Of a stretch of 64,000 bases of DNA, positions 4,728 through 56,522 are shown piece by piece. A program made the position numbers and the translations under genes. The notes under the pieces are model-generated. The model saw only the letters and a list, made by a program, of their open reading frames with translations. It ran no database searches and had not been told where the DNA came from. This stretch comes from Escherichia phage alia: sequence record NC_052655.1; one strand, given 5' to 3'. The number at the start of each line of letters is the position of its first letter. Position 1 is the stretch's first letter.

Positions 4728-5111
4728 ATGAGCAATATCATCAACCTGGCGGCTACTGTAAACGGTAAAGATTTTAACGGCGCTGTAGATCGTGATCCTA
4801 TGTGGTGCTTATCAGTGTTTAAAGGCGATCTGGTTGAAGTTAGAACAACCGAAGGGTATAGCGATGATTATAAATGCGAGATCCATTTACATAACTGGTA
4901 CACGGGTAAAACTTATGCGCTGAATCATGCGTTTATCGGGAAAATTGAATATCGCGAGATGATCGACGAAGAAACGGGGCAAGATTTTAGCGAGCATGTT
5001 TATATTCGTTCAGAAACATTAGCCGAACGTTTGATCGAGAAAATGAAAGCAAAAAATAAAATTAATTTATCTCATTGGATTGATATAACAAACGATCCGG
5101 CTTATCAGTAA
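4728..5111 (+). CDS. hypothetical protein (127 aa)
   Basis: ORF track 4653..5111 begins inside the promoter; ATG 4728 with GAGGAAACACC RBS chosen. Confidence 0.55.
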   Translation: MSNIINLAATVNGKDFNGAVDRDPMWCLSVFKGDLVEVRTTEGYSDDYKCEIHLHNWYTGKTYALNHAFIGKIEYREMIDEETGQDFSEHVYIRSETLAERLIEKMKAKNKINLSHWIDITNDPAYQ

Positions 5112-5127
5112 ATAACATTTCATACAA

Positions 5128-5153
5128 GGGCGCTTATTGCGCCCTTTCTTTTT
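5128..5153 (+). terminator. rho-independent terminator
   Basis: GGGCGC-TTATT-GCGCCC hairpin followed by TTTCTTTTT. Confidence 0.6.
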
Positions 5154-5357
5154 ACCTAAATAAAGATGATAGCTTTTACCTATCAAAAACGTTCACCGAA
5201 AAAAGTGAATAGATCGCGGTATCGAGCTAATCAAGGAGCAGATGAACAACCATACCATGAAGATCATAAGGCGCTTACAGCGTGTTTTAGACCGCTTATT
5301 TTTAATTTCTTCATGTAACTATCTGGCAAAAACAGCCTTTTTCTTGTCTTTCCTCTT

Positions 5358-6488
5358 AAATGATAATCATTCTTATTTATAGCTGATTATTTATGCAATA
5401 AACTGCATAATGCAATAATGATAATCATTCTTAACTTAAGACCATCTAACTTATAAAATAATAAGTTATCTAACTAAATTAAAGCTAATTATCTTACTTT
5501 TATTTATAACATACTGTTACTATCTTATTGATAACCTTATATTAAACAACAATAATCAATGTAAATCATTACTAAGCTAACTATAATCTATCTAACCCTT
5601 AAAACTACAATTATAATCTATCAAATTGTTGCACAAAGTAACTATTAAATTGTTAGTAACATTGCTAAATAATTAATATCCTATCTATTTATGATCTAAT
5701 CTTTACCTCCCTATCTATTACCTAAATAACCATTTCATGTGGTAATCATTTCATACAATAACTATAACAAGAAATATAATTCGCAAGCGTATCATTAGCA
5801 GCCTATGCCGGACACATAGGCGGCTAATAATAACGCAACTACACACCCCACATAATAACCATCACCGATAGTTATTATTTGTGCTTATGTAGCTTGCAAC
5901 AATTGCAAGCGCAACAATATACATGGTATATTGTATCCCTTACATTGTTGCGGTGCGTTATTATTAGCTAATGTTTAGAACATTGGCTATAATATAAGCT
6001 AAGTAATAAGCTAGTCAATAATAAACATAATGAATAATGACATTAATGATCATAATGCGCCACCCTCCAGGGGGCGCTATGTGAACACAAAGAAATCATT
6101 CTTGTCAAGAAAAATATCACCCTATTGCGCAAAATTATTTATATCTGAATAGATGATTTTTCATACTATTGCCCCCTATAACATACCTCATTTGTTGAGC
6201 CTACTTTCTTAAAAGCGCAATAAAGTAGAATTATCTTGATTTTTAGTCGGTTTTATAGTACAGAAAGTATGCAAATGATAATCATTATCAGCTATCCTCC
6301 AGGGTGGCACTATTTCACGCCAGATCATTTCATTTGGCAAGGTGTATATAGATGTTTAGAAATGCCAAGCCATTGATTTACTTAGAATTTATCTGTTTTG
6401 TTGTGAGTAGTACCTTTCTTGCTTAGAAAATAATCAAAAGTCTTATAAGTCATTGAATGATAATGCAAATGATAATTATTCTCATTGA
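5358..6488. repeat. AT-rich non-coding region with iteron-like repeats (core AATGATAATCATT) and repeated CCTCCAGGG(G/T)G(C/G)CAC motif
   Basis: Copies of (A)AATGATAATCATT(C/A)T near 5358, 5415, 6269 and 6455 (degenerate copy near 5741); CCTCCAGGGGGCGCTAT at 6064 and CCTCCAGGGTGGCACTAT at 6297. No credible ORF. Confidence 0.55.
5803..5965. repeat. palindrome-rich segment (hairpin GCCTATG...CATAGGC; inverted TAATAATAACGCAAC / GCGTTATTATTAGC)
   Basis: Read directly from sequence: 7-bp inverted repeat at 5803-5826 and longer inverted repeat arms flanking 5830-5960 with the central TTGCAACAATTGCAA palindrome. Confidence 0.45.
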
Positions 6489-15465: not shown

Positions 15466-15678
15466 ATGGGAATGTTGCTTCGTGTTTTTGTGTTTCTTAT
15501 GTTCTGGATTATCGTTGGTAACGGTATTGTATTTTTGATTTTTCCTGAAGTGATGACAGGTAATGAAAATAAGGCAGTGCCTTACATTATGCTTATCGGT
15601 TACGGTATTGGTACACTTGGACTACTGTTTGCTGATTGGTTAATCAATACTTTGTTCTCTAAGTACAGGAACAACTAA
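15466..15678 (+). CDS. hypothetical membrane protein (70 aa, two predicted TM helices)
   Basis: ORF track; translation has two hydrophobic stretches (VFVFLMFWIIVGNGIVFLIF and YIMLIGYGIGTLGLLFADWLI). Confidence 0.5.
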   Translation: MGMLLRVFVFLMFWIIVGNGIVFLIFPEVMTGNENKAVPYIMLIGYGIGTLGLLFADWLINTLFSKYRNN

Positions 15679-15679
15679 T

Positions 15680-15952
15680 ATGTCGGAAAACTTACCTAAT
15701 GTTTTCTTTTGTTTTGTAGATTGTGTTACACAAGAAATTATAGTTGACGAAGAAGGTATGTTTACTTATTTTGCATCTGAAGAAGAGGCAAAACTATCAG
15801 CTATGAAATGTATAAGCCAAATGTCAGTATCTGCTGTCAACAGGTTCGGTATTGCCCAGGTGTATAAAACAGTAACAGAGTTTACACCAGATCGAAAACT
15901 AACTTTTCTTAACGTTCACTTTGTTTGTAAGTTTAGTGAACTACGACATTAA
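15680..15952 (+). CDS. hypothetical protein (90 aa)
   Basis: ORF track. Confidence 0.5.
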   Translation: MSENLPNVFFCFVDCVTQEIIVDEEGMFTYFASEEEAKLSAMKCISQMSVSAVNRFGIAQVYKTVTEFTPDRKLTFLNVHFVCKFSELRH

Positions 15953-15966
15953 AAGCAGGAGTAAAA

Positions 15967-16566
15967 ATGAAAGAATATTGGAGTGGTGAGAAGGGCTTGC
16001 TAAAGCCAGGGATGCTTTTGCGAGTAAAGAACATGTTGATCACACAAGATTACATAATGCCTAATCCTGGAGCATTAGTAGAATTCCTTACTGCGCGAGA
16101 TCAACCTGGGGTTGGTGAAATGTGGATTGTAACGTGGATATCTCTCGATAGTAAATTGCGCGTTGCTCCTATTGACCCAAAACACTTGGAATCTCCTTAC
16201 GCCAGCATTGATTCTCGGATCATAGATTTGGCTAGAGTTTATAAGGCTAGGACTGGTGTAGAATTAGATGTAGAAATTTTAAATCAATGTATTGACTTCT
16301 TACCTGAAAAAGTGCATAATGCACAACAAGAAGATAGCAGTTTAGAAGTTATTCTTCTGAATGATGGGATGTTCTCTGGTTTGGCATCTGTAGATTTTCC
16401 AATAACATTAAGATTGTTACCTGGAGAATACGTACTAGATGAAGATACTATTGCTATATCCTCTAAAATTTTAGAACTCATTCCAGGTGCAAGGTGTGTT
16501 GGTGATACATCTTCCTTGCTGTTTACTCTGAATGAAGAAGCCGTTATAGTTAAAAAGGAGAAGTAA
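15967..16566 (+). CDS. hypothetical protein (199 aa)
   Basis: ORF track; AGCAGGAG RBS. Confidence 0.6.
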   Translation: MKEYWSGEKGLLKPGMLLRVKNMLITQDYIMPNPGALVEFLTARDQPGVGEMWIVTWISLDSKLRVAPIDPKHLESPYASIDSRIIDLARVYKARTGVELDVEILNQCIDFLPEKVHNAQQEDSSLEVILLNDGMFSGLASVDFPITLRLLPGEYVLDEDTIAISSKILELIPGARCVGDTSSLLFTLNEEAVIVKKEK

Positions 16567-17525: not shown

Positions 17526-17531
17526 CACATA

Positions 17532-17553
17532 AACCCGCTTCGGCGGGTTTTCT
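17532..17553 (+). terminator. rho-independent terminator
   Basis: AACCCGC-TTCG-GCGGGTT hairpin followed by TTCTTG. Confidence 0.5.
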
Positions 17554-17910: not shown

Positions 17911-17946
17911 AAAGCCCCTAGAAGCGATTCTAGGGGCTTTTGTTTG
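17911..17946. terminator. bidirectional rho-independent terminator at the plus/minus strand switch
   Basis: GCCCCTAG-AAGCGATT-CTAGGGGC hairpin flanked by an A-run upstream and a T-run downstream; sits between convergent gene ends 17832(+) and 18008(-). Confidence 0.6.
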
Positions 17947-18309: not shown

Positions 18310-19122
18310 TTATTTAGTCAAATGATCTTCTATCATTTTTATGAAAGCAGGATTGCTAAAAGCATCTGCGGCTTTTTCTCGATAAACAAAGACTCCTCTA
18401 TCTTCGTAAAGAAGAGTTTCTTCGTAATTAATTCCTGGGTTAACAACAATCATTTTTGTACCCATATTAAGTGCAGGGAATAATTCCCAATTAAAATTAA
18501 TAACTTGGTTTGAACATCCTACTACAACAACCAAATCTTGCATGGTCAAAGTATCAAACAAGTGAGCCATATCTGCATACAAAGGTGCAGCCTCACCAAA
18601 AAATACAACATTAGGCTTCACCCAGTTATAATCATCTATGTTTATATTGTTGTAACCGATATCTACCAGTGTCTTGTAATCTCCAGGATGCATACGATAA
18701 ACTACTTCAGGAAGATATCCGTGCACGTGAATAACAGAATTTCTGTCTACACCTGCTCGCTCTAGTAGATCATCAACGTTTGTTGTCAAGTTTACTATTT
18801 GGTTAGGATATTCCTTAAACCACTTTGCTATTTGAATATGTGCAGCATTAGGTTGTACATCTTTAAGCTCAACACGTCTTTTGTTATAAAATTCGTGTGT
18901 TTTGGCATACAAATCCATACCGTTTTCGTCTACACCACCAACCACTGGAAGATCTGGAGATGTTCTCACACGATAACCTGCTTGGAAAGCTCCAATATCG
19001 CAGATCTCTTCTAAATCATATTCTTCCCATAAAGCACGACCACTATCTGTGTCTGTTCGGAATGTTCGAATCCCACTGTCTGCACTTAAACCTGCGCCAC
19101 TGACAAAAATTACTCTTCGCAT
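18310..19122 (-). CDS. Sir2-family NAD-dependent deacylase/ADP-ribosyltransferase-like protein
   Basis: N-terminus VIFVSGAGLSADSGIRTFR matches the Sir2 Rossmann signature GAGIS-x3-GIP-x-FR; 270 aa. Confidence 0.7.
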   Translation of the reverse strand: MRRVIFVSGAGLSADSGIRTFRTDTDSGRALWEEYDLEEICDIGAFQAGYRVRTSPDLPVVGGVDENGMDLYAKTHEFYNKRRVELKDVQPNAAHIQIAKWFKEYPNQIVNLTTNVDDLLERAGVDRNSVIHVHGYLPEVVYRMHPGDYKTLVDIGYNNINIDDYNWVKPNVVFFGEAAPLYADMAHLFDTLTMQDLVVVVGCSNQVINFNWELFPALNMGTKMIVVNPGINYEETLLYEDRGVFVYREKAADAFSNPAFIKMIEDHLTK

Positions 19123-19664
19123 TCAATATCCTCTTCGTAATCATCATACCAAGAAGATGCGTCGTAACGCTCTTCCTCTTCGAAATCCCAATTAATTTCT
19201 ACTCCAAAATCTAAAAACAATTTAACAATGTTTTCTGTAGAGTAGTATTTATCATAAGCATTAGCTAGTTCCCAATACTTATCACTCAATTTTTTATAAT
19301 TAGGATCATTGTAATCATGAGCTACTTTATCACCATAATCATACATCTCTTCTTCAGCTTTAAGCATAGCTTCTGGTGTAAGAAGATTAGGGAACGGACG
19401 ATTTCTTTCTTTTAACTTAGAAGCAATCCAGTTTGCAACATTCGCCACTTCACCATCTCGATTATCACCTAAACAACTTGCATAATCTCCATCTTCGTAA
19501 GTGCCTAAATCCCCACTGACTTCATGTACAATAGATGAATACGATCCACACGTTTCACAATCTGAAAAAGTGTCTACTGTTGTAATATCAATAGATAAAA
19601 CTGGTAAAGCCATAGCTTCTTTCACACAAGCCTCCTCATATAATAACATATCATCAAAACCCAT
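19110..19664 (-). CDS. hypothetical acidic protein (184 aa)
   Basis: ORF track 19110..19679 (TTG start); ATG 19664 with GGAGGA RBS chosen. Very acidic, Tyr/Asp/Glu-rich. Confidence 0.5.
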   Translation of the reverse strand: MGFDDMLLYEEACVKEAMALPVLSIDITTVDTFSDCETCGSYSSIVHEVSGDLGTYEDGDYASCLGDNRDGEVANVANWIASKLKERNRPFPNLLTPEAMLKAEEEMYDYGDKVAHDYNDPNYKKLSDKYWELANAYDKYYSTENIVKLFLDFGVEINWDFEEEERYDASSWYDDYEEDIECEE

Positions 19665-19682
19665 ATATCCTCCAGACAAATA

Positions 19683-19702
19683 AAGCCCCTGGTTGGGGCT
19701 TT
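19683..19702 (-). terminator. rho-independent terminator candidate
   Basis: AAGCCCC-TGGTT-GGGGCTT hairpin; minus-strand transcript has a U-rich tail; the RBS of the next gene follows. Confidence 0.4.
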
Positions 19703-19718
19703 GGTTAAGTTTTATGGA

Positions 19719-20330
19719 TTATACCAGACTTTTAAGGTACTTGTCAAGGGCTTCTTGATCACCTTGACAAACATAGCAACGGAAGTCTTGAGCAGAAGGT
19801 TCTTTATCCTCTTCCCAATCCCAATAGACAGTACCTTTATAGCGTGAGCCTGGGAACTCGAAGTATGCTACATGGGTAATATGGTGTGGGCCACCCCAAA
19901 ACTCTGTAAAAGTAAATTGAGGATACGCTGCTTTAACTGTATTTTCAAACCAAGTTTTACGATCTAATGCTTCGTTTATAAAATAAGCATGGCGTTCCAT
20001 TTCATCCCAATCTTTCCAAACGCATTTTTCATCCAGAGAAAAAACAAAATTCTCACTGTTAAAATCGTCTGTATCTGATTCCAAAATATCATAATCATGT
20101 GCGCTAGGTATCCACCATCCAGCTTCTAATAGGGCTTTCGCAGGTACAAAACCTTTTTCAGCGTATTGATCAAATTCTTTTACTCTACGTACAGTGCAGT
20201 ATTCATCTTCACCACCAATATCCAGTATACAAGCGCCTTTGCGTCTTGCTGCAAGACCATGTGTATCAAAAACTACAACACTACCTTCACCATCTTCACG
20301 ATCTACTTGATATGCAACTTTTTGAGTCAT
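19719..20330 (-). CDS. hypothetical protein (203 aa)
   Basis: ORF track. Confidence 0.55.
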   Translation of the reverse strand: MTQKVAYQVDREDGEGSVVVFDTHGLAARRKGACILDIGGEDEYCTVRRVKEFDQYAEKGFVPAKALLEAGWWIPSAHDYDILESDTDDFNSENFVFSLDEKCVWKDWDEMERHAYFINEALDRKTWFENTVKAAYPQFTFTEFWGGPHHITHVAYFEFPGSRYKGTVYWDWEEDKEPSAQDFRCYVCQGDQEALDKYLKSLV

Positions 20331-21879: not shown

Positions 21880-21935
21880 TGTAGTTTATTCGAAAAGACT
21901 GGTGTTGTCAACAAAAAACCCGCCGAAGCGGGTTT
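21880..21935 (-). promoter_or_regulatory. intrablock terminator hairpin followed by candidate minus-strand promoter
   Basis: Minus-strand AACCCGC-TTCG-GCGGGTT plus U-run (plus 21911-21935), then minus-strand TTGACA, 17-nt spacer, TAAACT within plus 21880-21910. Confidence 0.4.
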
Positions 21936-21938
21936 ATA

Positions 21939-22196
21939 TTATTCTACAGGAATTTCTTCACCAAGAGAAACTTCCAAACGGAATGCTTTACTTTCAATAC
22001 ATTCACTACCTTTTAAGAAATCGAATTGCACTATAGACTGACTTAATAGAATAGATAGAATCACATCGCAATCTTCACTAGGAGCCAGATGTTTGTATTC
22101 TTCCTTCAAGGTAACATCATAAAAACATAAATCCCCTACTCCTAGTTCATCCCATCCTTCCCACGCATCTACAAAGTTAAACTCTAAACCTTTCAT
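21939..22196 (-). CDS. hypothetical protein (85 aa)
   Basis: ORF track. Confidence 0.5.
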   Translation of the reverse strand: MKGLEFNFVDAWEGWDELGVGDLCFYDVTLKEEYKHLAPSEDCDVILSILLSQSIVQFDFLKGSECIESKAFRLEVSLGEEIPVE

Positions 22197-22717
22197 ACAA
22201 CCTCCTCGTAATTGTTATTGTGTTTTACTGTCTCAACATACAATAAAGATTCCATCTGTAAGACATTACCAGAAATAATAAACCCATAAGCCATTTCAGA
22301 TGTGTCTATATCATACGCCCCGTCTTCCGGTTTGGCAAAGTGTAAAACTATTTCATCTGGGTTTTCTTCATCCCATATTTTAGAAATTTTCCGAACCAGA
22401 ATATTAGCTAAAATAGTTGACATTCGGGATAAAGCTGTATCCTCGTATCTTTTAAAACCTAACCAATAGAGATTAAGAATTTCTACTTCTTCTTGTGTTA
22501 AGTTTTTGTCTAAAGTAATCAGATCTGTAGGATACATCGTTTTTGTTGAATCTACTATTACAAAACCTGGAGTGTTATGAAAAACAATCTTAACTTTATC
22601 ACGTATGAAGTTTAAACCTTGTGCCTCAACTATGTATTGTATTGTAGGTACAATATCGTTTGTTACATCAATAAAGCTATCTTTAATGACGCTTATATTA
22701 TTTCTGGACAAGACCAT
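22193..22717 (-). CDS. hypothetical protein (174 aa)
   Basis: ORF track. Confidence 0.55.
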   Translation of the reverse strand: MVLSRNNISVIKDSFIDVTNDIVPTIQYIVEAQGLNFIRDKVKIVFHNTPGFVIVDSTKTMYPTDLITLDKNLTQEEVEILNLYWLGFKRYEDTALSRMSTILANILVRKISKIWDEENPDEIVLHFAKPEDGAYDIDTSEMAYGFIISGNVLQMESLLYVETVKHNNNYEEVV

Positions 22718-23276
22718 TCTCCTCTAAAATAGGTTTAATAAATTCGAAGATTTGTTTTTTACTTTTACCTCGAATATTAAAACAAGGAACATTAAACTTT
22801 TTAGCCAACATCCAAGCTGTTCTTGTACCACCTAAAGGATCTCCATTTTTATCTGTATTTGCACAAGCTAAAAGAAAACAAGATGGTTTTGGATTCTCAA
22901 GATCTCTGCCAAGAACTTGGTGGATATTCCTTTGATGTAATTTTTTAGCACCTTGGGATAATCTGTCCCAAGCTGGATGCAATTCTTTTGCATATTGCAA
23001 AGTTAGAGCATAGTTCACACTGTCTGGTCTGTCAAGAACAATAACCTCTCCCTCTATCTCATTACCTTTAAACGAAGGCCAAGGAATGTATATTTCTTTC
23101 TTTGTATTGTTTCCACTATCATATACCCCGCATTCAAATGCGGAATCTGCACCTTCTGCTTTACCAGATCGCAAAATGAACCATGTAGATAACCATTTTG
23201 CAACAGCTACCATAGTGTCCCATTCTTCGTCTGTAATATCTCTGCTACCAACACCTGTGTAGAATAAATCGCTCAT
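22698..23276 (-). CDS. SLOG/DprA-like Rossmann-fold protein
   Basis: ORF track 22698..23393; start moved to the internal ATG (MSDLFYTGVGSRD...). GxGSR...SGxAxGADxA pattern resembles the DprA/Smf/LOG (SLOG) nucleotide-binding fold. Confidence 0.45.
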   Translation of the reverse strand: MSDLFYTGVGSRDITDEEWDTMVAVAKWLSTWFILRSGKAEGADSAFECGVYDSGNNTKKEIYIPWPSFKGNEIEGEVIVLDRPDSVNYALTLQYAKELHPAWDRLSQGAKKLHQRNIHQVLGRDLENPKPSCFLLACANTDKNGDPLGGTRTAWMLAKKFNVPCFNIRGKSKKQIFEFIKPILEENGLVQK

Positions 23277-23286
23277 GGTTTTCTCC

Positions 23287-23607
23287 TTAACAAGTAATAT
23301 TAGGAATAATACTGGGAGTAACAATTGGAGTAATAGGGTACGTAAACCAAGGGCTTCCAATTTCCCAAGGACTATAAGGTGTACGAGGATCAAATGGAGG
23401 CGTTACTTGAGGCTTTTTCCAAATCTCCGCTAGTTGTTTCTTCCATTTATCCCTTGCTGTATCGTTATCTTCATCCAACTGTTCGTCATTATCTTTTATT
23501 TCTGATTTTGGAAATAAAAGCTCTTTGACTAACTCAACGTCTTCCGTTTCAATAGTAGTTTCTTTCGTAATATTCCCTACCGTCTCTTTAATTGTGACTT
23601 TATACAT
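23287..23607 (-). CDS. hypothetical protein (106 aa)
   Basis: ORF track. Confidence 0.45.
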   Translation of the reverse strand: MYKVTIKETVGNITKETTIETEDVELVKELLFPKSEIKDNDEQLDEDNDTARDKWKKQLAEIWKKPQVTPPFDPRTPYSPWEIGSPWFTYPITPIVTPSIIPNITC

Positions 23608-24353
23608 TAGTCCTCCTCTAAAGTAGAATAAAATTGTAACGTATTTGAATCATCAAAATATGCAAAGGTTAAATTACCATTGAAGCAAGATCCTGTATCC
23701 ATATATACCCTATTACTGCTAATTACAGGTTTAGGAACATAAGAATGCCCGTGAAATACATAATCTACTCCTGAAACTCTAGGAAGAAGAATCCCTTCAA
23801 GGGCGCAATCTATCATATCACGATCCCACATTAAAGATTCTGTGAATCGAGATACTTGTTCTTTATTCATATTCGAACAAAATGGCAAAACTTCCGTCAC
23901 TGGTAGATGTTCCAAAACTGAAGGATATCCTCCGTGAATAAAGCCTAGTTTCATATTACGATAATTGACAACAAGTACAACAGGTAAGTCTTCTAGCATC
24001 AAAGCAAGAGCAGTTGCACCTTCTTCTCCACACTCGTTTAGAACTGTATGGCCTCCGTTCTGAAACCAACATTCGTAATATCGCCTATCACCTTCTAGCA
24101 ACCCTTTAATCATCATATCTTCGTGATTTCCACGAATAGCATAGCGATTTAGCTTTCTGGTGAATTCAACGGTACAACGAAAATTCTGCTTGCCGCGATC
24201 TGTAAGATCTCCTAAAGATACAACAACATCTTGATCTCGAATACCTAAAGTATTAACACCTTTCTGGTATAAATCAAAGCAACCATGTAAATCACCAATA
24301 ATAAACAGGTCTTGATCATCTTTTACACTAATTTCTTGATATACTAGCATCAA
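23607..24353 (-). CDS. Ser/Thr protein phosphatase (calcineurin-like metallophosphatase, PPP family)
   Basis: GDLHG, GDLTDRG and GNHE metal-binding motifs in canonical order and spacing. Confidence 0.8.
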   Translation of the reverse strand: MMLVYQEISVKDDQDLFIIGDLHGCFDLYQKGVNTLGIRDQDVVVSLGDLTDRGKQNFRCTVEFTRKLNRYAIRGNHEDMMIKGLLEGDRRYYECWFQNGGHTVLNECGEEGATALALMLEDLPVVLVVNYRNMKLGFIHGGYPSVLEHLPVTEVLPFCSNMNKEQVSRFTESLMWDRDMIDCALEGILLPRVSGVDYVFHGHSYVPKPVISSNRVYMDTGSCFNGNLTFAYFDDSNTLQFYSTLEED

Positions 24354-27617: not shown

Positions 27618-28271
27618 TTAATTATCAGAGGATACTTTATCAAGTTTTTCAGAGACTGTCAATACTTTTTCTTGTGATTCTTTCATTTCTGCTAAAATAC
27701 TTTCAGCTTCATCACTATCAGGATCACCAGTCAACAGCATACTAATTAGTTGCTCCTTGCTGAAGTTCAGAATATCTTCCGCTGTTAGCTCCAGTTGTTC
27801 TTCGATCTCTTCGACAAAAGTTTCACCGCCTGAAAAAGCATCTCGTAGTTTTGCAACTTCCATCGCTTCTTCTGGGGTTGCCCCAGCGTCTAAAGCTGCT
27901 AAAGCAAAATCTGCCCCACTACCAACAGCATAGTAATCTTCAGTTAAAGGATATGCTCGCGTTGGATTATTACCCTCGTGCATATAAATTTTACCGTCTG
28001 GGTGAACAACCAATGCCACAAACTCTTCATCTTCTTTATCAGGATCTGACTGGATCACCAAACCTGGGATTGTCTCTTGTGCTGCCTGGCACTGTAAGTT
28101 TTGTTCGAACCAAGAAAAGAAAGTCAGGATAGAAGACAGACGTCCTGCACCACCAACAAGGTAATCCCCAATTTTACGCACTTTCTTGAAATTTAAAGTG
28201 TCTACTCGATTACCTACTGTTACTTTACCATCAGATAGAATTTTGTTATGTGTTGCAATAATTGTTGTCAT
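27618..28271 (-). CDS. HslV-like N-terminal-threonine peptidase with acidic C-terminal extension
   Basis: Begins MTTIIA (Thr2 as candidate nucleophile, as in HslV MTTIVSV); KKVRKIG and AVGSGADFALAA align by eye with HslV KKVRRL and AIGSGGPYAQAA; acidic tail of about 50 aa. Confidence 0.6.
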   Translation of the reverse strand: MTTIIATHNKILSDGKVTVGNRVDTLNFKKVRKIGDYLVGGAGRLSSILTFFSWFEQNLQCQAAQETIPGLVIQSDPDKEDEEFVALVVHPDGKIYMHEGNNPTRAYPLTEDYYAVGSGADFALAALDAGATPEEAMEVAKLRDAFSGGETFVEEIEEQLELTAEDILNFSKEQLISMLLTGDPDSDEAESILAEMKESQEKVLTVSEKLDKVSSDN

Positions 28272-28762
28272 TGTACTTCCTCCTGTAGTGTTTTAAGGAC
28301 TGCTTTACCACCGCTTACATACTTACGTAGGTAATCAATAGCTCTTAGTGTTTCTTTATCCACAAGAATCTTATTAGTTCTTGTCAATGGGTGATTCAGT
28401 AAGTCACTGCAATTTCTTACTAACATAGATTTCTTGTGAAAGATACTGCTAAGAAAAAGAAGTTTAGAATCTTCTTCATCAATCAGGAGTAGTTCTGAAT
28501 TAGACCCAGCTACATTTATTATACACTCAAACAAGCCTTCTTGACTATCAGATAATTCCTGGTAATATTTAGTTAGCCAATCCTCTCCTTTTAACCAACT
28601 AAAAAACATCTGAACTTTTTGCAAAGTTGTCATGTTCTCTAAACGAAGAGATATTTCTTTTTCAATCTTGTCAATATAAATCTGTCTAAACTCATTCGGC
28701 TTAACTAAGCCAGCTTGATAGCATTCATCAATACCATTGCGATCAATCTCAATTAGCGTCAT
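28268..28762 (-). CDS. hypothetical protein (164 aa)
   Basis: ORF track; ATGA overlap. Confidence 0.5.
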   Translation of the reverse strand: MTLIEIDRNGIDECYQAGLVKPNEFRQIYIDKIEKEISLRLENMTTLQKVQMFFSWLKGEDWLTKYYQELSDSQEGLFECIINVAGSNSELLLIDEEDSKLLFLSSIFHKKSMLVRNCSDLLNHPLTRTNKILVDKETLRAIDYLRKYVSGGKAVLKTLQEEVQ

Positions 28763-53823: not shown

Positions 53824-54717
53824 ATGAAAGTTAGTATTCTACATGGTGTTGACTGTTATGTTACTGATGTAGACGTTAAAGTCTTTACATTCTCTGGTGG
53901 AGAACAACATGTTCAACTAGACACGAATCTATCAGGTTTCAATCATGCTACAGACAGAATCTTACTCTCTTTAGAAGTAAGATCTGCTAAAGACTTGATG
54001 ACTTTGGTTATGACTAAGAATGCATTGGACAATATGCTATATCATAAACCATATTGTGTTGATTTGCTCATGTTGTATGTGCCATATGCACGACAAGACA
54101 GAGTGTGTGAACCTGGGGAAGCATTCGGAGTTAAAGCATTTGCTTCTATAATTAATTCATTAAATTTCTCACGTGTTATCGTTGCTGATCCACATAGTGA
54201 TGTTACTCCAGCGGTGTTTGACAGACTCTGTGTAATACCTCAAGAAGAGATTGCTTACGAAACTTTAAAGTGGAAGTTACGTATGGAGAATTTTGCTCTT
54301 GTTAGTCCTGATGGTGGTGCTCTTAAGAAAATATTTAAATTATCTAAGAAAATGTCTTTAGATGTGTTCTGTGCAGAGAAGGTTAGAGATACTGCAACAG
54401 GTGCTATTGTTCGTACAGACATTTCTGTACAGGATTTCAATAAGCGTAACCTGATGATCGTAGATGATATCTGTGACGGCGGTAGAACTTTTATTGAATT
54501 GGCTAAAGTGCTACGTGCTCGTAACGCAGGTAAGATTGAGTTATATGTTACACACGGTATCTTTTCTAAAGGTCTTAAAGAGTTAAGTGAGCACTTTGAC
54601 TGCATTCATTCTCTTAATGTGTGGGAAGATAACATCCAAGAAGATTCCGGTGTTCTTGTTAAGAATCAGTCAGATTTGCAACAACAAATTGTATCTCCAT
54701 ACGTGTGGAATTTTTAA
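53824..54717 (+). CDS. ribose-phosphate pyrophosphokinase (PRPP synthetase)-like protein
   Basis: 297 aa; phosphoribosyl-binding loop MIVDDICDGGRT (compare Prs VDD-x-x-DTGGT); N-terminal half parallels Prs. Confidence 0.7.
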   Translation: MKVSILHGVDCYVTDVDVKVFTFSGGEQHVQLDTNLSGFNHATDRILLSLEVRSAKDLMTLVMTKNALDNMLYHKPYCVDLLMLYVPYARQDRVCEPGEAFGVKAFASIINSLNFSRVIVADPHSDVTPAVFDRLCVIPQEEIAYETLKWKLRMENFALVSPDGGALKKIFKLSKKMSLDVFCAEKVRDTATGAIVRTDISVQDFNKRNLMIVDDICDGGRTFIELAKVLRARNAGKIELYVTHGIFSKGLKELSEHFDCIHSLNVWEDNIQEDSGVLVKNQSDLQQQIVSPYVWNF

Positions 54718-54727
54718 ATAATAAGTG

Positions 54728-54762
54728 TTGACAATAGGGAGTATGCTTAGTAAGATACTCCC
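54728..54762 (+). promoter_or_regulatory. promoter overlapping a stem-loop
   Basis: TTGACA 54728-54733, 17-nt spacer, TAAGAT 54751-54756; inverted repeat GGGAGTAT...ATACTCCC (54737-54762) encloses the -10. Confidence 0.45.
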
Positions 54763-54788
54763 ACACTAACAAACAAGGAGACATAACT

Positions 54789-56522
54789 ATGAATATTTTT
54801 GCACCTTTTGCTACTGATTGGTATAAACCTGGTCACAAGCAGATGTACAACCAAAATACAAAACTTATTTTCTCTAATTTAACTCCTCGTAATGATAAAA
54901 ACTTTGCACACTATGCAGATCGTGAAGCACGTGGTGTAATTGTTTTAGGTATTCGTCGAGCAGTTACTGATGCTCTTGTAACTATGTGGGATAGCTTCTT
55001 TAAAATGTCTCGTAGTGCAGCAGTAAATAAGTTTTATCGTATGTCTAAAAATGCATTAGGTGCTTCTGCTCCTTCTGCTGAATGTTGGGGAGAATTGCAC
55101 GATTTAGGTTATCTTCCGCTGGAAGTTCGATCTCTGCCAGAAGGTGTTTTGTGTCCTATTGGTGTTCCTGTGTTTACTGTGCATAATACTTTAGAAAAAT
55201 TCTTTTGGTTAACTAACTATGTGGAAACACTATTGTCAGATGAAACTTGGAAGACAATGACTAATGCTACAGCAGCTTTTCAGTATAAGCGTATTGCTAT
55301 GGCATATGCGATGGCAACGTGTGATAATATTGATCACGTTAACTTCCAGTGTCATGATTTTAGCCTACGTGGTTTAAGTAATATCGAAGATGGTTATAAG
55401 AGTGGTATCGCTCATTTGGCATCTTTCACAGGAACAGATAACATTCTGGCTATTGAGACTGTGCATGATTATTATGGTATTGATTATGATCAGTTTGTTG
55501 CAGGTTCTATTCCGGCAACAGAACATTCAGTAGCAACGACTAACATTGGAGCTATTGTTGAAGATCTGAAGAAACATTTCCCACATCTTAAAGATGATGT
55601 TGATGGGCTTCGTTATGTAGCAGAGAAAGAGTTTCTTCGCCGCTATATCGAAGAAATTGTTCCAGAAGGTTTTTGTTCATATGTAGCAGATTCTTATGAC
55701 TACTGGGCTGTCTTGACTCGCATTCTGGTAGAATTGAAAGAATCCATTATGTCACGAAATGGTCGTCTTGTTATTCGTCCAGATTCAGGAGATCCGGTTA
55801 AAGTTGTTGCAGGATACAATGTTGAATCTTTTGATAACTATGAAGACCTTTTAAATAATGGTATTGCTACAGCCACTGAAGTAGTTCATTTGGCTGATGT
55901 TAATAAGTATTACAATGTTCTTCAGGATTGCAGTGTTGCTGATTGTATTGATGAAACTTATGAGATTCCTTATTGTGAAGCAGTAGGTTCTATTCAAATC
56001 CTTTGGGAAGTGTTTGGTGGTACTATCAACCGAAAAGGCTACAAGGTTCTTGATCAGCACATCGGTATGATTTATGGTGATTCTATTACTGTTGAACGAG
56101 AACACGAGATCTTACGCCGACTGAAGAAGAAAGGTTTTGCAGCTTCCAATATTGTATTTGGTGTTGGTAGTTATACTTATCAGTTCAATACACGAGATAC
56201 TTTTGGTTTTGCTGTTAAAGCAACAGGTAGTATCATCGGTGAACACGAAATTTTGGTAAGTAAGGAGCCTAAAACTGATCCTGGTAAACGTTCTGCAAAA
56301 GGTTTTATTAAGGTTGTTAAGGATACAAACGGTAAACTTTCTCTCGTGGATAATCTTTCTTTTAAAGATATTCAAGATGAAGACAATGAGTTAAAAGTTA
56401 TCTTCAGGGATGGTACGGTTATTACACCACAAGTAGAAGGACGTGATGAAACATTTACGGATATCCGCAACCGTGTTGATGTAGAGGTTCTTCGTACTAT
56501 GGGAACCATCCAGGTTGACTAA
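54789..56522 (+). CDS. nicotinamide phosphoribosyltransferase (NAMPT/NadV)-like protein
   Basis: 577 aa; N-terminal FATDWYKPGHKQMY parallels the NAMPT TDSYK-x-x-H motif; size and glycine-rich central segments are consistent with the type II phosphoribosyltransferase fold. Confidence 0.7.
   Translation: MNIFAPFATDWYKPGHKQMYNQNTKLIFSNLTPRNDKNFAHYADREARGVIVLGIRRAVTDALVTMWDSFFKMSRSAAVNKFYRMSKNALGASAPSAECWGELHDLGYLPLEVRSLPEGVLCPIGVPVFTVHNTLEKFFWLTNYVETLLSDETWKTMTNATAAFQYKRIAMAYAMATCDNIDHVNFQCHDFSLRGLSNIEDGYKSGIAHLASFTGTDNILAIETVHDYYGIDYDQFVAGSIPATEHSVATTNIGAIVEDLKKHFPHLKDDVDGLRYVAEKEFLRRYIEEIVPEGFCSYVADSYDYWAVLTRILVELKESIMSRNGRLVIRPDSGDPVKVVAGYNVESFDNYEDLLNNGIATATEVVHLADVNKYYNVLQDCSVADCIDETYEIPYCEAVGSIQILWEVFGGTINRKGYKVLDQHIGMIYGDSITVEREHEILRRLKKKGFAASNIVFGVGSYTYQFNTRDTFGFAVKATGSIIGEHEILVSKEPKTDPGKRSAKGFIKVVKDTNGKLSLVDNLSFKDIQDEDNELKVIFRDGTVITPQVEGRDETFTDIRNRVDVEVLRTMGTIQVD

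What the first reader, a model, noticed from the sequence alone, without database searches (positions are those of the whole stretch)
22698..23276. SLOG/DprA-like Rossmann protein of unclear role
The GxGSR ... SGKAEGADSA pattern resembles the DprA/Smf/LOG (SLOG) fold that binds nucleotides or single-stranded DNA and recurs in nucleotide-signalling and conflict systems. Its proximity to the Sir2-like protein and the phosphatase suggests a role in sensing or processing NAD- or nucleotide-derived signals, but the identification is weak.
Basis: inference. Interest (0 to 1): 0.45.

Follow-up and report, generated by a model that had tools for sequence, protein, structure and literature searches.

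The report
Phage DprA-like SLOG nucleotide-binding protein
This is a real, well-conserved phage gene for a small DprA-like (SLOG-fold) nucleotide-binding protein that is already annotated in relatives. No experimental test of its function was found, and its domain fusions point to ADP-ribose/NAD+ counter-defence rather than to the neighbouring Sir2 gene.

Summary
Window 22698..23276 (minus strand) is a 192-aa gene with its own ribosome-binding site. It is identical to proteins in phi92-like E. coli phages (Phi92_gp047) and matches PHROG 768, "DprA-like DNA recombination-mediator protein", at E = 2e-60.

A confident AlphaFold model (pLDDT 96.7) has the SLOG fold. DprA is the nearest family by sequence. 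Both published DprA ssDNA-binding motifs are present and invariant: G-S-R, and L-x-x-R-N. The LOG catalytic motif is absent.

The protein is a bare domain. It misses Pfam's DprA threshold, and no RecA/UvsX is annotated in a close relative's genome.

Relatives are repeatedly fused to NADAR, to DUF4326 and to other SLOG domains. A NADAR, Macro or DUF4326 gene lies within 3 kb in 9 of 34 lineages. A phi92-like relative carries all three as separate genes.

The Sir2 neighbour is specific to one lineage and sits in a separate predicted transcription unit.

My best reading is a nucleotide-moiety binder, possibly a processor, in the phage's ADP-ribose/NAD+ counter-defence toolkit (about 0.45). A canonical ssDNA/RecA mediator is the main rival (about 0.25).

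The family and this prediction are already published, so interest is modest.

The parts
22698..23276 (-). CDS of the 192-aa stand-alone SLOG / DprA-like protein (Phi92_gp047 family, PHROG 768)
   Evidence: sequence; PHROG 768, E = 2e-60; 100% identical annotated proteins; structure
23283..23288 (-). Shine-Dalgarno sequence AAGGAG, 6 nt upstream of the ATG. It overlaps the TAA stop of the upstream 106-aa gene.
   Evidence: read directly from the sequence
23241..23249 (-). G10-S11-R12. This corresponds to DprA motif 1 (G-S/T/A-R), whose arginine gates the base pocket (R52 in H. pylori DprA).
   Evidence: G10 and R12 invariant, S11 97%; aligned to the DprA GSR/GTR motif; motif definition, PMC3950713
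23145..23168 (-). S37-G-K-A-E-G-A-D44. This is the SGxAxGxD loop/helix after strand 2, shared with DprA (SGlArGiD).
23070..23081 (-). W66-P-S-F69. [quoted passage not shown] I infer they are the counterpart of the Tyr108 stacking platform of H. pylori DprA.
   Evidence: W66 and F69 99% conserved; strand 60-64. The equivalence to Tyr108 is inferred, not superposed.
22974..22979 (-). H100-P101, a family-specific near-invariant motif (HPAW) that is not part of the DprA definition
22926..22940 (-). L113-H-Q-R116-N117. This corresponds to DprA motif 2 (F/L/Y-x-x-R-N/D), the residues that orient the inserted base in H. pylori DprA (F140, R143, N144).
   Evidence: H114, R116 and N117 invariant, L113 97%
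22818..22832 (-). G149-G-T-R-T153, a loop at the start of a helix. G150 aligns with Gly164 of H. pylori DprA, which contacts the bound base. The Glu of the LOG motif PGGxGTxxE is absent.
   Evidence: second aligned stretch to 5mll/4ljk
23607..24353 (-). Calcineurin-like (Metallophos) phosphoesterase, two genes upstream in the same predicted transcription unit
   Evidence: PF00149, E = 4e-14; (Metallophos within 10 kb in 12 of 34 lineages)
23287..23607 (-). 106-aa gene of unknown function (phrog_15301), immediately upstream
22193..22717 (-). 174-aa gene of unknown function (phrog_8569). Its start overlaps the SLOG gene's 3' end by 20 nt and has its own GAGGAG site, so the two are probably translationally coupled. 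It is lineage-specific.
21916..21935 (-). Terminator-like hairpin that closes the phosphatase / 106 aa / SLOG / 174 aa / 85 aa unit

Best explanation
The gene encodes a single-domain SLOG-superfamily protein of the widespread phage family PHROG 768 (Phi92_gp047). Its closest cellular relative is the Rossmann domain of DprA.

Shown:
- It has the SLOG fold.
- It retains the residues that form the nucleobase pocket in H. pylori DprA: the G-S-R gate arginine (R12), the L113-x-x-R116-N117 helix and the G149-G150-T151 loop.
- It carries conserved aromatics (W66, F69) after strand 3.
- It lacks the LOG catalytic motif.

Inferred:
- All invariant residues sit in loops at the C-terminal ends of the strands or on the capping helix. 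That is the canonical SLOG ligand site, so the protein binds one nucleotide-type moiety there.

Most likely mechanism (inferred from fusions, neighbourhoods and co-occurrence):
- It is a binding, and possibly N-glycoside-processing, module of the phage's NAD+/ADP-ribose counter-defence toolkit.
- Its ligand would be ADP-ribose-bearing, either ADP-ribosylated single-stranded DNA or a soluble ADP-ribose-derived molecule.
- It would work with NADAR, Macro, DUF4326 and phosphoesterase proteins.
- It would not be a canonical RecA loader.

In this phage the partner domains are separate genes elsewhere in the genome.

Confidence that the fold and family are right is about 0.95. The 0.45 given below applies to the functional reading.
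For: Fold and family:
- PHROG 768 at E = 2e-60.
- AF2 pLDDT 96.7.
- Foldseek top hits are H. pylori DprA at E = 7e-6.
- 58 of 73 members weakly hit PF02481, and none hit the LOG, YpsA or YAcAr models.

Pocket:
- Both DprA ssDNA-binding motifs as defined in PMC3950713 are present and invariant.

Link to ADP-ribose:
- Among the top 150 family representatives there are fusions NADAR+SLOG (P0139, P0203), DUF4326+SLOG in both orders (P0199, P0205, P0217, P0074), and giant polyvalent proteins combining this SLOG with YAcAr, SLOG-cluster4 and NADAR domains (P0121, P0122).
- A NADAR, DUF4326 or Macro gene lies within 3 kb in 9 of 34 lineages. Of 10 such genes found within 10 kb, 9 are within 3 kb, against 30% expected (binomial p about 1.4e-4, my arithmetic).
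- PRPP-synthetase-like plus NamPRT genes (the NAD+-reconstitution type) lie within 10 kb in 5-6 lineages and are adjacent in L022 and L053.
- In Xanthomonas phage XacN1, NADAR, an unnamed gene, Nudix and SLOG lie within 1.9 kb. In Vibrio phage VPMCC14, the two genes under the NADAR+SLOG query overlap by 4 nt.
- NADAR and SLOG co-occur in about 99-132 of 50,697 phage records, against about 14 expected.
- The phi92-like relative PHB05 encodes NADAR (E = 3e-36), DUF4326 (E = 1e-20), Macro (E = 2e-7), Sir2 and a PRPP-synthetase-like/NamPRT pair as separate genes.

Literature:
- Phage NADAR (T4 gp30.3/AdfN) removes ADP-ribose from DNA and defeats DarTG1 (PMC11257639).
- Iyer et al. 2022 (PMC9503650) predicted that viral SLOG domains fused to Macro, NADAR or DUF4326 process or sense ADP-ribose derivatives.
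- Knockout of a different viral SLOG (PhiDruSM1 ORF83) sensitises that phage to Avs type III (10.1101/2024.04.14.589459).

Against a classic recombination role:
- No RecA/UvsX is annotated in PHB05.
- The family's median pI is 7.1 and its net charge is 0.
Against: - No biochemical or genetic test of this family was found in the literature I could search.
- In the window itself no ADP-ribose-processing gene is adjacent. The partner genes lie outside the window in the relative's genome.
- Only 9 of 34 lineages show close linkage. The commonest neighbours are PhoH, phosphoesterases, ClpP-like, HslV-like and ribonucleotide reductase genes, the generic auxiliary block of large lytic phages.
- The co-occurrence counts are not corrected for phylogeny or genome size. 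The upper estimate of 132 is inflated by E-value differences between query lengths.
- The retained DprA motifs are equally what a plain ssDNA binder would keep.
- No catalytic residue can be named.
- I had no model coordinates, so the clustering of invariant residues around one pocket is inferred from topology rather than measured.
Confidence: 0.45

Rival explanations
1. Canonical DprA-like recombination mediator. The protein dimerises, binds phage single-stranded DNA through the conserved base pocket, and either loads host RecA or protects ssDNA intermediates during replication and recombination.
For: - PHROG and GenBank name it this way.
- DprA is the nearest family by sequence.
- Both DprA ssDNA-binding motifs and the Gly164 equivalent are invariant.
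- The isolated Rossmann domain of H. pylori DprA is sufficient to bind ssDNA (PMC3950713).
- The gene lies at the far end of a long leftward block that contains DNA polymerase exonuclease, recombination exonuclease, ligase and nucleotide-metabolism genes.
- Iyer et al. 2021 proposed DprA/Smf as an extra ssDNA-binding protein in jumbo phages.
- Conserved basic positions K111/K112, K143 and R152 lie near the pocket.
Against: - The query gets no Pfam PF02481 hit, and the members' hits were sub-threshold wherever bit scores were shown.
- Profile-profile alignment to Smf covers only the N-terminal 44 columns.
- There is no SAM or winged-helix domain.
- No recombinase is annotated in the phi92-like genome.
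- The identified fusion partners are NADAR, DUF4326 and other SLOG domains, none of them recombination proteins. Two further partners, phrog_2072 and phrog_9995, remain unidentified.
- Three different SLOG domains in one polyvalent protein are hard to explain as three ssDNA binders.
- The family's overall charge is neutral.
Confidence: 0.25
2. LOG-like nucleotide phosphoribohydrolase for nucleotide-pool remodelling. The protein would cleave the N-glycosidic bond of AMP or another (d)NMP as part of phage nucleotide metabolism.
For: - Neighbours in several lineages are ribonucleotide reductase, ThyX, dCMP deaminase and PhoH genes.
- The EVADES preprint predicts AMP binding for another viral SLOG, ORF83.
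Against: - The LOG signature PGGxGTxxE and its catalytic Glu are absent. The protein has GGTRTAW instead.
- No member hits Pfam LOG.
- ORF83 belongs to a different SLOG family that the window family's HMM does not detect.
Confidence: 0.1
3. Split ThsA-like pair. The SLOG protein would sense an ADP-ribose-derived signal and regulate the neighbouring Sir2-like protein.
For: - Sir2 is confirmed at 18310..19122 (PF02146, E = 1.6e-22).
Against: - Sir2 is a neighbour only in phi92-like loci, 1 of 34 lineages, and in L010-L015 it is on the opposite strand.
- Two terminator-like hairpins and a 12/12 sigma-70 consensus promoter separate the two genes.
- ThsA is the weakest of the SLOG structural matches.
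- PADLOC gives no hit.
Confidence: 0.05
4. Antitoxin mimic. The phage protein would substitute for the DprA-like antitoxin ShosA (or a similar host factor) to neutralise the ShosTA abortive-infection system.
For: - ShosA acts without binding ShosT and needs ssDNA binding and RecA interaction (PMC12961424).
- Phage orphan antitoxins have a precedent in AdfN (PMC11257639).
Against: - The protein lacks the SAM domain and helix alpha-14 that ShosA needs for stability and dimerisation.
- It is no closer to ShosA than to other SLOG families.
- The family occurs in hosts and phages well beyond the documented range of ShosTA.
Confidence: 0.05

Closest known systems
PHROG 768 / Phi92_gp047 family ('DprA-like DNA recombination-mediator protein' of tailed phages)
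   Same: Full-length match at E = 2e-60. Identical proteins are annotated in phi92-like phages. BFVD structural relatives have TM 0.7-0.87.
   Different: Nothing differs: the protein is a member. The family name is a homology label, not a tested function.
DprA/Smf Rossmann (DNA_processg_A, PF02481) domain, e.g. H. pylori DprA (4LJK, 4LJR, 5MLL)
   Same: SLOG fold. The G-S-R and L-x-x-R-N motifs, the SGxAxGxD loop and the Gly164 equivalent are all present. DprA is the best sequence-profile and Foldseek hit.
   Different: - Below the Pfam threshold.
- Only the N-terminal 44-45 residues align by profile methods.
- About 13 extra residues lie between the R-N motif and the GGT loop.
- Family-specific invariants include the HPAW motif, H114, Q120 and S132.
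- No SAM or winged-helix domains.
- A phage gene, not associated with competence genes.
- Dimerisation and RecA contacts are untested.
Viral SLOG domains fused to Macro, NADAR or DUF4326 (Iyer, Burroughs, Anantharaman, Aravind 2022, PMC9503650)
   Same: The same fusion partners (NADAR, DUF4326), Macro, Nudix and NAD-salvage neighbours, and co-occurrence with NADAR are found here for this family.
   Different: That paper assigns most viral SLOG domains to the YpsA-like clade. In my tests this family is nearest to DprA and does not hit the YpsA or YAcAr models. I could not check whether they counted Phi92_gp047, because no supplement is held.
PhiDruSM1 ORF83 / Seurat gp80 (compact YAcAr/DUF2493-type phage SLOG; its knockout is sensitive to Avs type III)
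   Same: A stand-alone phage SLOG with G-G-R, GxAxGxD, R-N and GGxGT motifs. Relatives are fused to DUF4326. It is the only viral SLOG I found with an anti-defence phenotype.
   Different: A different family. It is 130 aa long and the window family's HMM does not detect it. hhalign gives E = 3e-3 over 39 columns. BFVD YspA/DUF2493-type proteins match at TM of only about 0.45.
ThsA SLOG domain (Thoeris; binds 3'cADPR)
   Different: Not fused to Sir2. The Sir2 linkage is lineage-specific and in a separate transcription unit. ThsA is the weakest structural match among the SLOG families.
ShosA (DprA-like antitoxin of ShosTA)
   Same: A DprA-type SLOG domain used in a phage-bacterium conflict.
   Different: ShosA has a SAM domain and helix alpha-14 and is paired with the PRTase toxin ShosT. 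None of these is present here, and PADLOC gives no hit.

Membership tests
SLOG superfamily (SMF/DprA-LOG Rossmannoid fold) | Three-layer alpha/beta Rossmannoid fold with a parallel sheet, structurally matching several SLOG families | tested here: met
SLOG superfamily (SMF/DprA-LOG Rossmannoid fold) | Conserved Gly-rich or polar loops after strand 1 and before the last helices, forming the ligand site | tested here: met
   G8, G10, S11, R12; G38, A40, G42, D44; and G149, G150, T151 are invariant or nearly so.
PHROG 768 | Significant full-length match to the family profile | tested here: met
   E = 2.2e-60, residues 2-186 against profile positions 2-184 of 191.
DprA/Smf (DNA_processg_A, PF02481) | Motif 1, G-S/T/A-R, in the loop after the first core strand (Wang et al. 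2014) | tested here: met
   G10-S11-R12, invariant or 97% conserved, aligned to the DprA GSR/GTR motif.
DprA/Smf (DNA_processg_A, PF02481) | Motif 2, F/L/Y-x-x-R-N/D, in the pocket helix | tested here: met
   L113-H114-Q115-R116-N117, with L 97% conserved and H, R and N invariant. Placement rests on motif and secondary-structure position, not on a residue-level superposition.
DprA/Smf (DNA_processg_A, PF02481) | Score above the Pfam gathering threshold (29.6 bits) | tested here: not met
   The query has no hit at E <= 1. 58 of 73 members have weak hits, best E = 3.6e-6. The best bit score displayed for any relative was 29.2, for P0254. Matches cover only about 45-50 residues of the model.
DprA/Smf (DNA_processg_A, PF02481) | Accessory SAM (N-terminal) and/or winged-helix DML1 (C-terminal) domains, found in most cellular DprA proteins | tested here: not met
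   192 aa, with a single domain covering residues 4-186.
DprA/Smf (DNA_processg_A, PF02481) | ssDNA binding, homodimerisation and RecA interaction/loading | not testable with these tools
   These need EMSA or MST, AUC and pull-downs. No multimer prediction was available.
LOG (PF03641) phosphoribohydrolases | PGGxGTxxE motif with the catalytic Glu | tested here: not met
   The sequence is K/L-G-G-T-R-T-A-W with no Glu. No member hits the Pfam LOG model.
YpsA / YAcAr (DUF1273, DUF2493) viral SLOG clade | Match to PF06908 or PF10686, or to a phenotyped member (ORF83 / Seurat gp80) | tested here: not met
   None of 73 members hits these models. The family HMM finds nothing in phage Seurat. hhalign gives E = 3e-3 over 39 columns. 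BFVD YspA/DUF2493 proteins match at TM of about 0.45.
ThsA-type Sir2-SLOG effector (Thoeris) | SLOG covalently or operonically coupled to a Sir2 NADase, with a TIR partner | tested here: not met
   Sir2 is a separate gene 3.5 kb away in a separate predicted transcription unit and is a neighbour in 1 of 34 lineages. PADLOC gives no hit.
ShosTA antitoxin ShosA | SAM + DprA + alpha-14 architecture next to the PRTase toxin ShosT | tested here: not met
   Single-domain protein. Pfam scans of the flanking ORFs found only SIR2 and Metallophos domains, and GenBank annotation of the region shows no toxin-like PRTase partner. PADLOC gives no hit for the protein. Architecture.

The most novel reading that the evidence does not exclude
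The PHROG 768 proteins are a very widespread, still uncharacterised counter-defence module, found in more than 1,200 sequenced phages. On this reading a DprA-type pocket has been repurposed to recognise, and perhaps cleave, an ADP-ribose-bearing nucleotide. The most interesting version is recognition of ADP-ribosylated bases on single-stranded phage DNA. The protein would then cooperate with NADAR, Macro and DUF4326 enzymes to undo DarT-type DNA ADP-ribosylation, or to destroy ADP-ribose-derived immune signals.
Probability: 0.3. Interest if true: 0.65.

Novelty: already known. Interest (0 to 1): 0.33.

Why it matters
If the counter-defence reading is right, a gene routinely labelled "DprA-like recombination mediator" in well over a thousand phage genomes, many of them candidates for therapy, would be mis-described. 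It would instead belong to the NAD+/ADP-ribose arms race, alongside NADAR (AdfN), Macro and the NAD+-reconstitution pathways.

That would assign a biochemical role to a widespread viral SLOG family. It would also offer a test case for how the DprA base pocket can be reused.

If the protein is simply an ssDNA/RecA helper, the finding is ordinary.

Tried and rejected
- Direct sequence searches of the query against Pfam, NCBIfam, PADLOC and PDB found no usable hit.
- Profile against PDB: DprA chains come top, but only at E = 0.07-0.24 and only over the N-terminal motif.
- hhalign of the family against E. coli Smf alone, an alignment of Smf and 79 relatives found by a genome scan, almost all Enterobacteriaceae, and Seurat gp80 all gave short N-terminal alignments with E about 1e-3. 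These tests do not discriminate between subfamilies. The Smf set lacked diversity, and only three near-identical gp80 relatives were found.
- The apparent "nicotinamide-nucleotide adenylyltransferase" overlapping the homologue in Klebsiella phage OY979426 is rejected. That record's feature table is out of register with its ORFs. The real upstream neighbour there looks like a PhoH-type P-loop ATPase by its sequence.
- I asked whether the anti-Avs3 protein ORF83 belongs to this family. It does not. gp80 is a YAcAr-type SLOG and the family HMM does not detect it.
- Two further fusion partners, phrog_2072 and phrog_9995, have no Pfam or PDB sequence match. An AF2 model of the P0200 fusion from a four-sequence alignment gave pLDDT mostly below 60, with the highest 10-residue block at 66, in the extra domain, so I did not fold-search it.
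- No supplement was held for Iyer et al. 2022.
- I found no obligate neighbouring gene across 34 lineages.
Full report
**What is there**

Window 22698..23276 on the minus strand is a 192-aa gene, MSDLFYTGVGSR...SGKAEGADSA.... The mechanical ORF list extends the frame to a TTG at 23393, but the real start is the ATG at 23276. Three things show this:
- An AAGGAG ribosome-binding site lies 6 nt upstream.
- The upstream gene's stop codon overlaps that site.
- All homologues and database records begin at MSDLFYTG.

The window comes from a phi92-like Escherichia myophage (Justusliebigvirus). The surrounding 12 kb is 98-99% identical to phages AMO3598, SD2, W22 and PHB05. The protein is 99-100% identical to Phi92_gp047 and its orthologues. 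Many of these are already annotated "DprA-like DNA recombination-mediator protein".

**Fold and family**

The query alone hits nothing in Pfam, NCBIfam, PADLOC or PDB. It matches PHROG 768 over its full length at E = 2e-60.

A 73-sequence alignment (A1) gave an AlphaFold2 model with pLDDT 96.7 and pTM 0.92.
- Foldseek against PDB puts H. pylori DprA first (E = 7e-6). MoCo carrier protein, S. pneumoniae DprA, ShosA, ThsA SLOG, LOG enzymes and YpsA follow.

The fold is SLOG, but structure alone does not pick a subfamily. Sequence does, weakly:
- 58 of 73 members give sub-threshold hits to Pfam DprA (best E = 3.6e-6).
- 10 members hit SLOG cluster 4.
- None hits the LOG, YpsA or YAcAr models.
- The family profile's best PDB hits are all DprA chains.

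BFVD shows a coherent phage structural family with TM 0.7-0.87. It is distinct from the YspA/DUF2493-type viral SLOG proteins, which match at TM of about 0.45.

**The pocket**

Wang et al. (PMC3950713) define the DprA domain by two ssDNA-binding motifs:
- G-S/T/A-R, where R52 gates the pocket.
- F/L/Y-x-x-R-N/D, where F140, R143 and N144 hold the inserted thymine.

Tyr108 and Gly164 also contact the base. The phage family has invariant G10-S11-R12 and L113-x-x-R116-N117. G150 aligns with Gly164. Near-invariant aromatics W66 and F69 follow strand 3.

The LOG catalytic motif PGGxGTxxE is absent. The family adds invariants of its own: H100-P101, H114, Q120 and S132.

All invariant residues fall in loops at the C-terminal ends of the strands or on the capping helix. 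I infer a single nucleotide-type ligand site.

The family is charge-neutral overall, with a median pI of 7.1.

**Why it is not simply "a DprA"**

- It is a bare 192-aa domain.
- It misses Pfam's DprA threshold.
- Profile-profile alignment to Smf covers only the first 44 columns.
- The fully annotated relative PHB05 has no annotated RecA or UvsX.

**Context in the window**

Terminator-like hairpins are enriched in the region, 13 against 4.6 expected. They divide it into predicted units.
- The phosphatase (23607..24353; Metallophos, E = 4e-14), the 106-aa gene, the SLOG gene, the overlapping 174-aa gene and the 85-aa gene form one unit. It ends at the hairpin at 21935-21916.
- The Sir2 gene (18310..19122; PF02146, E = 1.6e-22) lies two terminators further on, behind a 12/12 sigma-70 consensus promoter at 19747-19718.

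**Context elsewhere**

I collected 80 IMG/VR loci. I called and clustered their ORFs and grouped 76 loci into 34 lineages by SLOG identity below 60%. There is no obligate partner gene. Recurrent neighbours are:

| Neighbour | Lineages of 34, within 10 kb | Within 3 kb |
|---|---|---|
| PhoH | 13 | 6 |
| Metallophos phosphoesterases | 12 | 7 |
| ClpP-like | 9 | not counted |
| HslV-like | 6 | not counted |
| PRPP-synthetase-like + NamPRT | 5-6 | 3-4 |
| Macro | 5 | 5 |
| DUF4326 | 3 | 2 |
| NADAR | 2 | 2 |
| Sir2 | 1 (the phi92-like lineage) | 1 |

Ribonucleotide reductase genes also recur.

A Macro, NADAR or DUF4326 gene lies within 3 kb in 9 lineages. Of the 10 such genes found within 10 kb, 9 are within 3 kb, against 30% expected (binomial p about 1.4e-4, a rough internal control).

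**Fusions**

A search of 1.84 billion cluster representatives found 6,045 clusters at E <= 1e-3. Among the best 150, the multidomain members are:
- NADAR+SLOG: P0139, P0203.
- DUF4326+SLOG in both orders: P0199, P0205, P0217, P0074.
- Two proteins of about 1,480 aa that combine this SLOG with YAcAr, SLOG-cluster4 and NADAR domains: P0121, P0122.
- Fusions to two unidentified domains: phrog_2072 (P0195, P0200, P0252; P0254 carries a shorter related tail that was not scanned) and phrog_9995 (P0211, P0228).

In isolated phages:
- XacN1 has NADAR, an unnamed gene, Nudix and SLOG within 1.9 kb.
- In VPMCC14 the two genes under the NADAR+SLOG query overlap by 4 nt.

From three tblastn counts, NADAR and SLOG co-occur in about 99-132 of 50,697 phage records, against about 14 expected. 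This is not corrected for phylogeny or genome size.

The phi92-like relative PHB05 encodes NADAR (E = 3e-36), DUF4326 (E = 1e-20; mis-annotated as NrdA-like) and Macro (E = 2e-7; annotated "phosphatase") as separate genes outside the window. It also has a PRPP-synthetase-like/NamPRT pair, which lies inside the window at 53824..56522.

**Literature**

- Iyer et al. 2021 (PMC7824862) suggested that DprA/Smf in jumbo phages acts as an extra ssDNA-binding protein.
- Iyer et al. 2022 (PMC9503650) described viral SLOG domains fused to Macro, NADAR and DUF4326. They predicted that these sense or cleave ADP-ribose derivatives.
- Phage NADAR (T4 gp30.3/AdfN) is a DNA ADP-ribosylglycohydrolase that defeats DarTG1 (PMC11257639).
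- A knockout screen found that PhiDruSM1 ORF83, described as "Smf/DprA-like", is needed against Avs type III (10.1101/2024.04.14.589459). I inferred its Seurat ortholog to be gp80 from four identically placed residues. That protein is a different, YAcAr-type SLOG family.
- I found no experiment on PHROG 768 itself.

**Interpretation**

The fold and family assignment are secure. For function, two lines of evidence point in different directions.
- The retained DprA pocket indicates that the protein binds a nucleobase or nucleotide moiety.
- The fusions, close linkage and co-occurrence place the family in the NAD+/ADP-ribose conflict toolkit rather than in recombination.

The reading I favour, at about 0.45, is a binder and possibly a processor of an ADP-ribose-bearing ligand. 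That ligand could be ADP-ribosylated ssDNA or a soluble derivative. The protein would work with NADAR, Macro, DUF4326 and phosphoesterase proteins.

The rivals are:
- Canonical ssDNA/RecA mediator, about 0.25.
- LOG-type hydrolase, about 0.1.
- Split ThsA-like pair with the neighbouring Sir2, about 0.05.
- ShosA mimic, about 0.05.

**Novelty**

The exact protein, the family label and the ADP-ribose prediction are all already published or deposited. What is missing is an experiment. Interest is therefore modest.

Noticed in passing
window 18310-19747 (minus strand): The Sir2-family gene (18310..19122) and an overlapping 189-aa gene (19110..19679) appear to form their own unit. A perfect TTGACA-18-TATAAT promoter lies at 19747-19718. 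Terminator-like hairpins lie at 19702-19682 and 18302-18284.
   Followed up: partly
window 53824-54717 and 54789-56522 (plus strand): A ribose-phosphate-pyrophosphokinase-like gene and a nicotinamide phosphoribosyltransferase gene lie side by side. This pair resembles the gene pair published as phage NAD+ reconstitution pathway 1 (Adps/Namat; that comparison is from my own knowledge). It lies 30 kb from the SLOG gene.
   Followed up: partly
L086 (NC_052652 PHB05): 15600-16316, 28148-28534, 36523-37074: The close relative's genome encodes three relevant proteins outside the window. They are a Macro-domain protein annotated 'phosphatase', a DUF4326 protein annotated 'ribonucleotide reductase NrdA-like', and a NADAR protein annotated 'hypothetical'. 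All three are domains that are fused or linked to this SLOG family in other phages.
   Followed up: yes
P0195, P0200, P0252 (C-terminal domain; P0254 has a shorter related tail); P0211, P0228 (N-terminal domain): Two further recurrent fusion partners of the family have no Pfam or PDB sequence match. They are phrog_2072 (motif VFVFGSN..G.HGAGAA ... SYAIPT) and phrog_9995. An AF2 model of the phrog_2072 domain from four sequences was too poor to search.
   Followed up: partly
P0121 (1475 aa), P0122 (1488 aa): These are giant polyvalent-type proteins. They carry the window's SLOG type, a YAcAr SLOG, a SLOG-cluster4 domain and a C-terminal NADAR in one chain.
   Followed up: partly
L089 5156-5548 (Escherichia phage Seurat gp80, NC_027378 53155..53547): This protein is annotated 'GTP-binding domain'. 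It is a compact YAcAr/DUF2493-type SLOG with R89, N90, T112 and D114, the residues reported for ORF83. I infer it is the ortholog of PhiDruSM1 ORF83, whose knockout is sensitive to Avs type III. An HslV-family peptidase gene lies four genes away, as one also does near the window's SLOG gene.
   Followed up: yes
L003 (OY979426.1, Klebsiella phage vB_Kpl_K54lambda1.1.1): The deposited feature table is out of register with the actual ORFs. The SLOG ORF (4995..5633) falls under a CDS labelled 'nicotinamide-nucleotide adenylyltransferase'. A PhoH-type P-loop ATPase ORF, judged from its sequence only, sits under 'unknown function' entries.
   Followed up: partly
hits H19-H22, H49-H52 (MG065639, MG065645, MG065656, MG065689): Four records named 'Campylobacter phage' with host C. 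jejuni are 98-99% identical to this E. coli phi92-like phage over 12 kb. The host or organism labels look doubtful.
   Followed up: no
window 17531-17550 and 21916-21935; also 17911-17940 and 19681-19703: Two pairs of terminator-like hairpins share a stem sequence. One pair has an AAACCCGC stem and the other an AAAGCCCC stem. Within each pair the loops are the same or reverse-complemented. The hairpins punctuate the leftward gene block and several score on both strands.
   Followed up: no
window 27618-28271 and about 28.8-29.6 kb; loci L069, L077, L051 and others: PhoH-like and HslV-like genes recur near the SLOG gene across Vequintavirinae-like and Aeromonas phages. PhoH is the immediate upstream neighbour in several lineages. 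The meaning of this synteny is unknown.
   Followed up: partly
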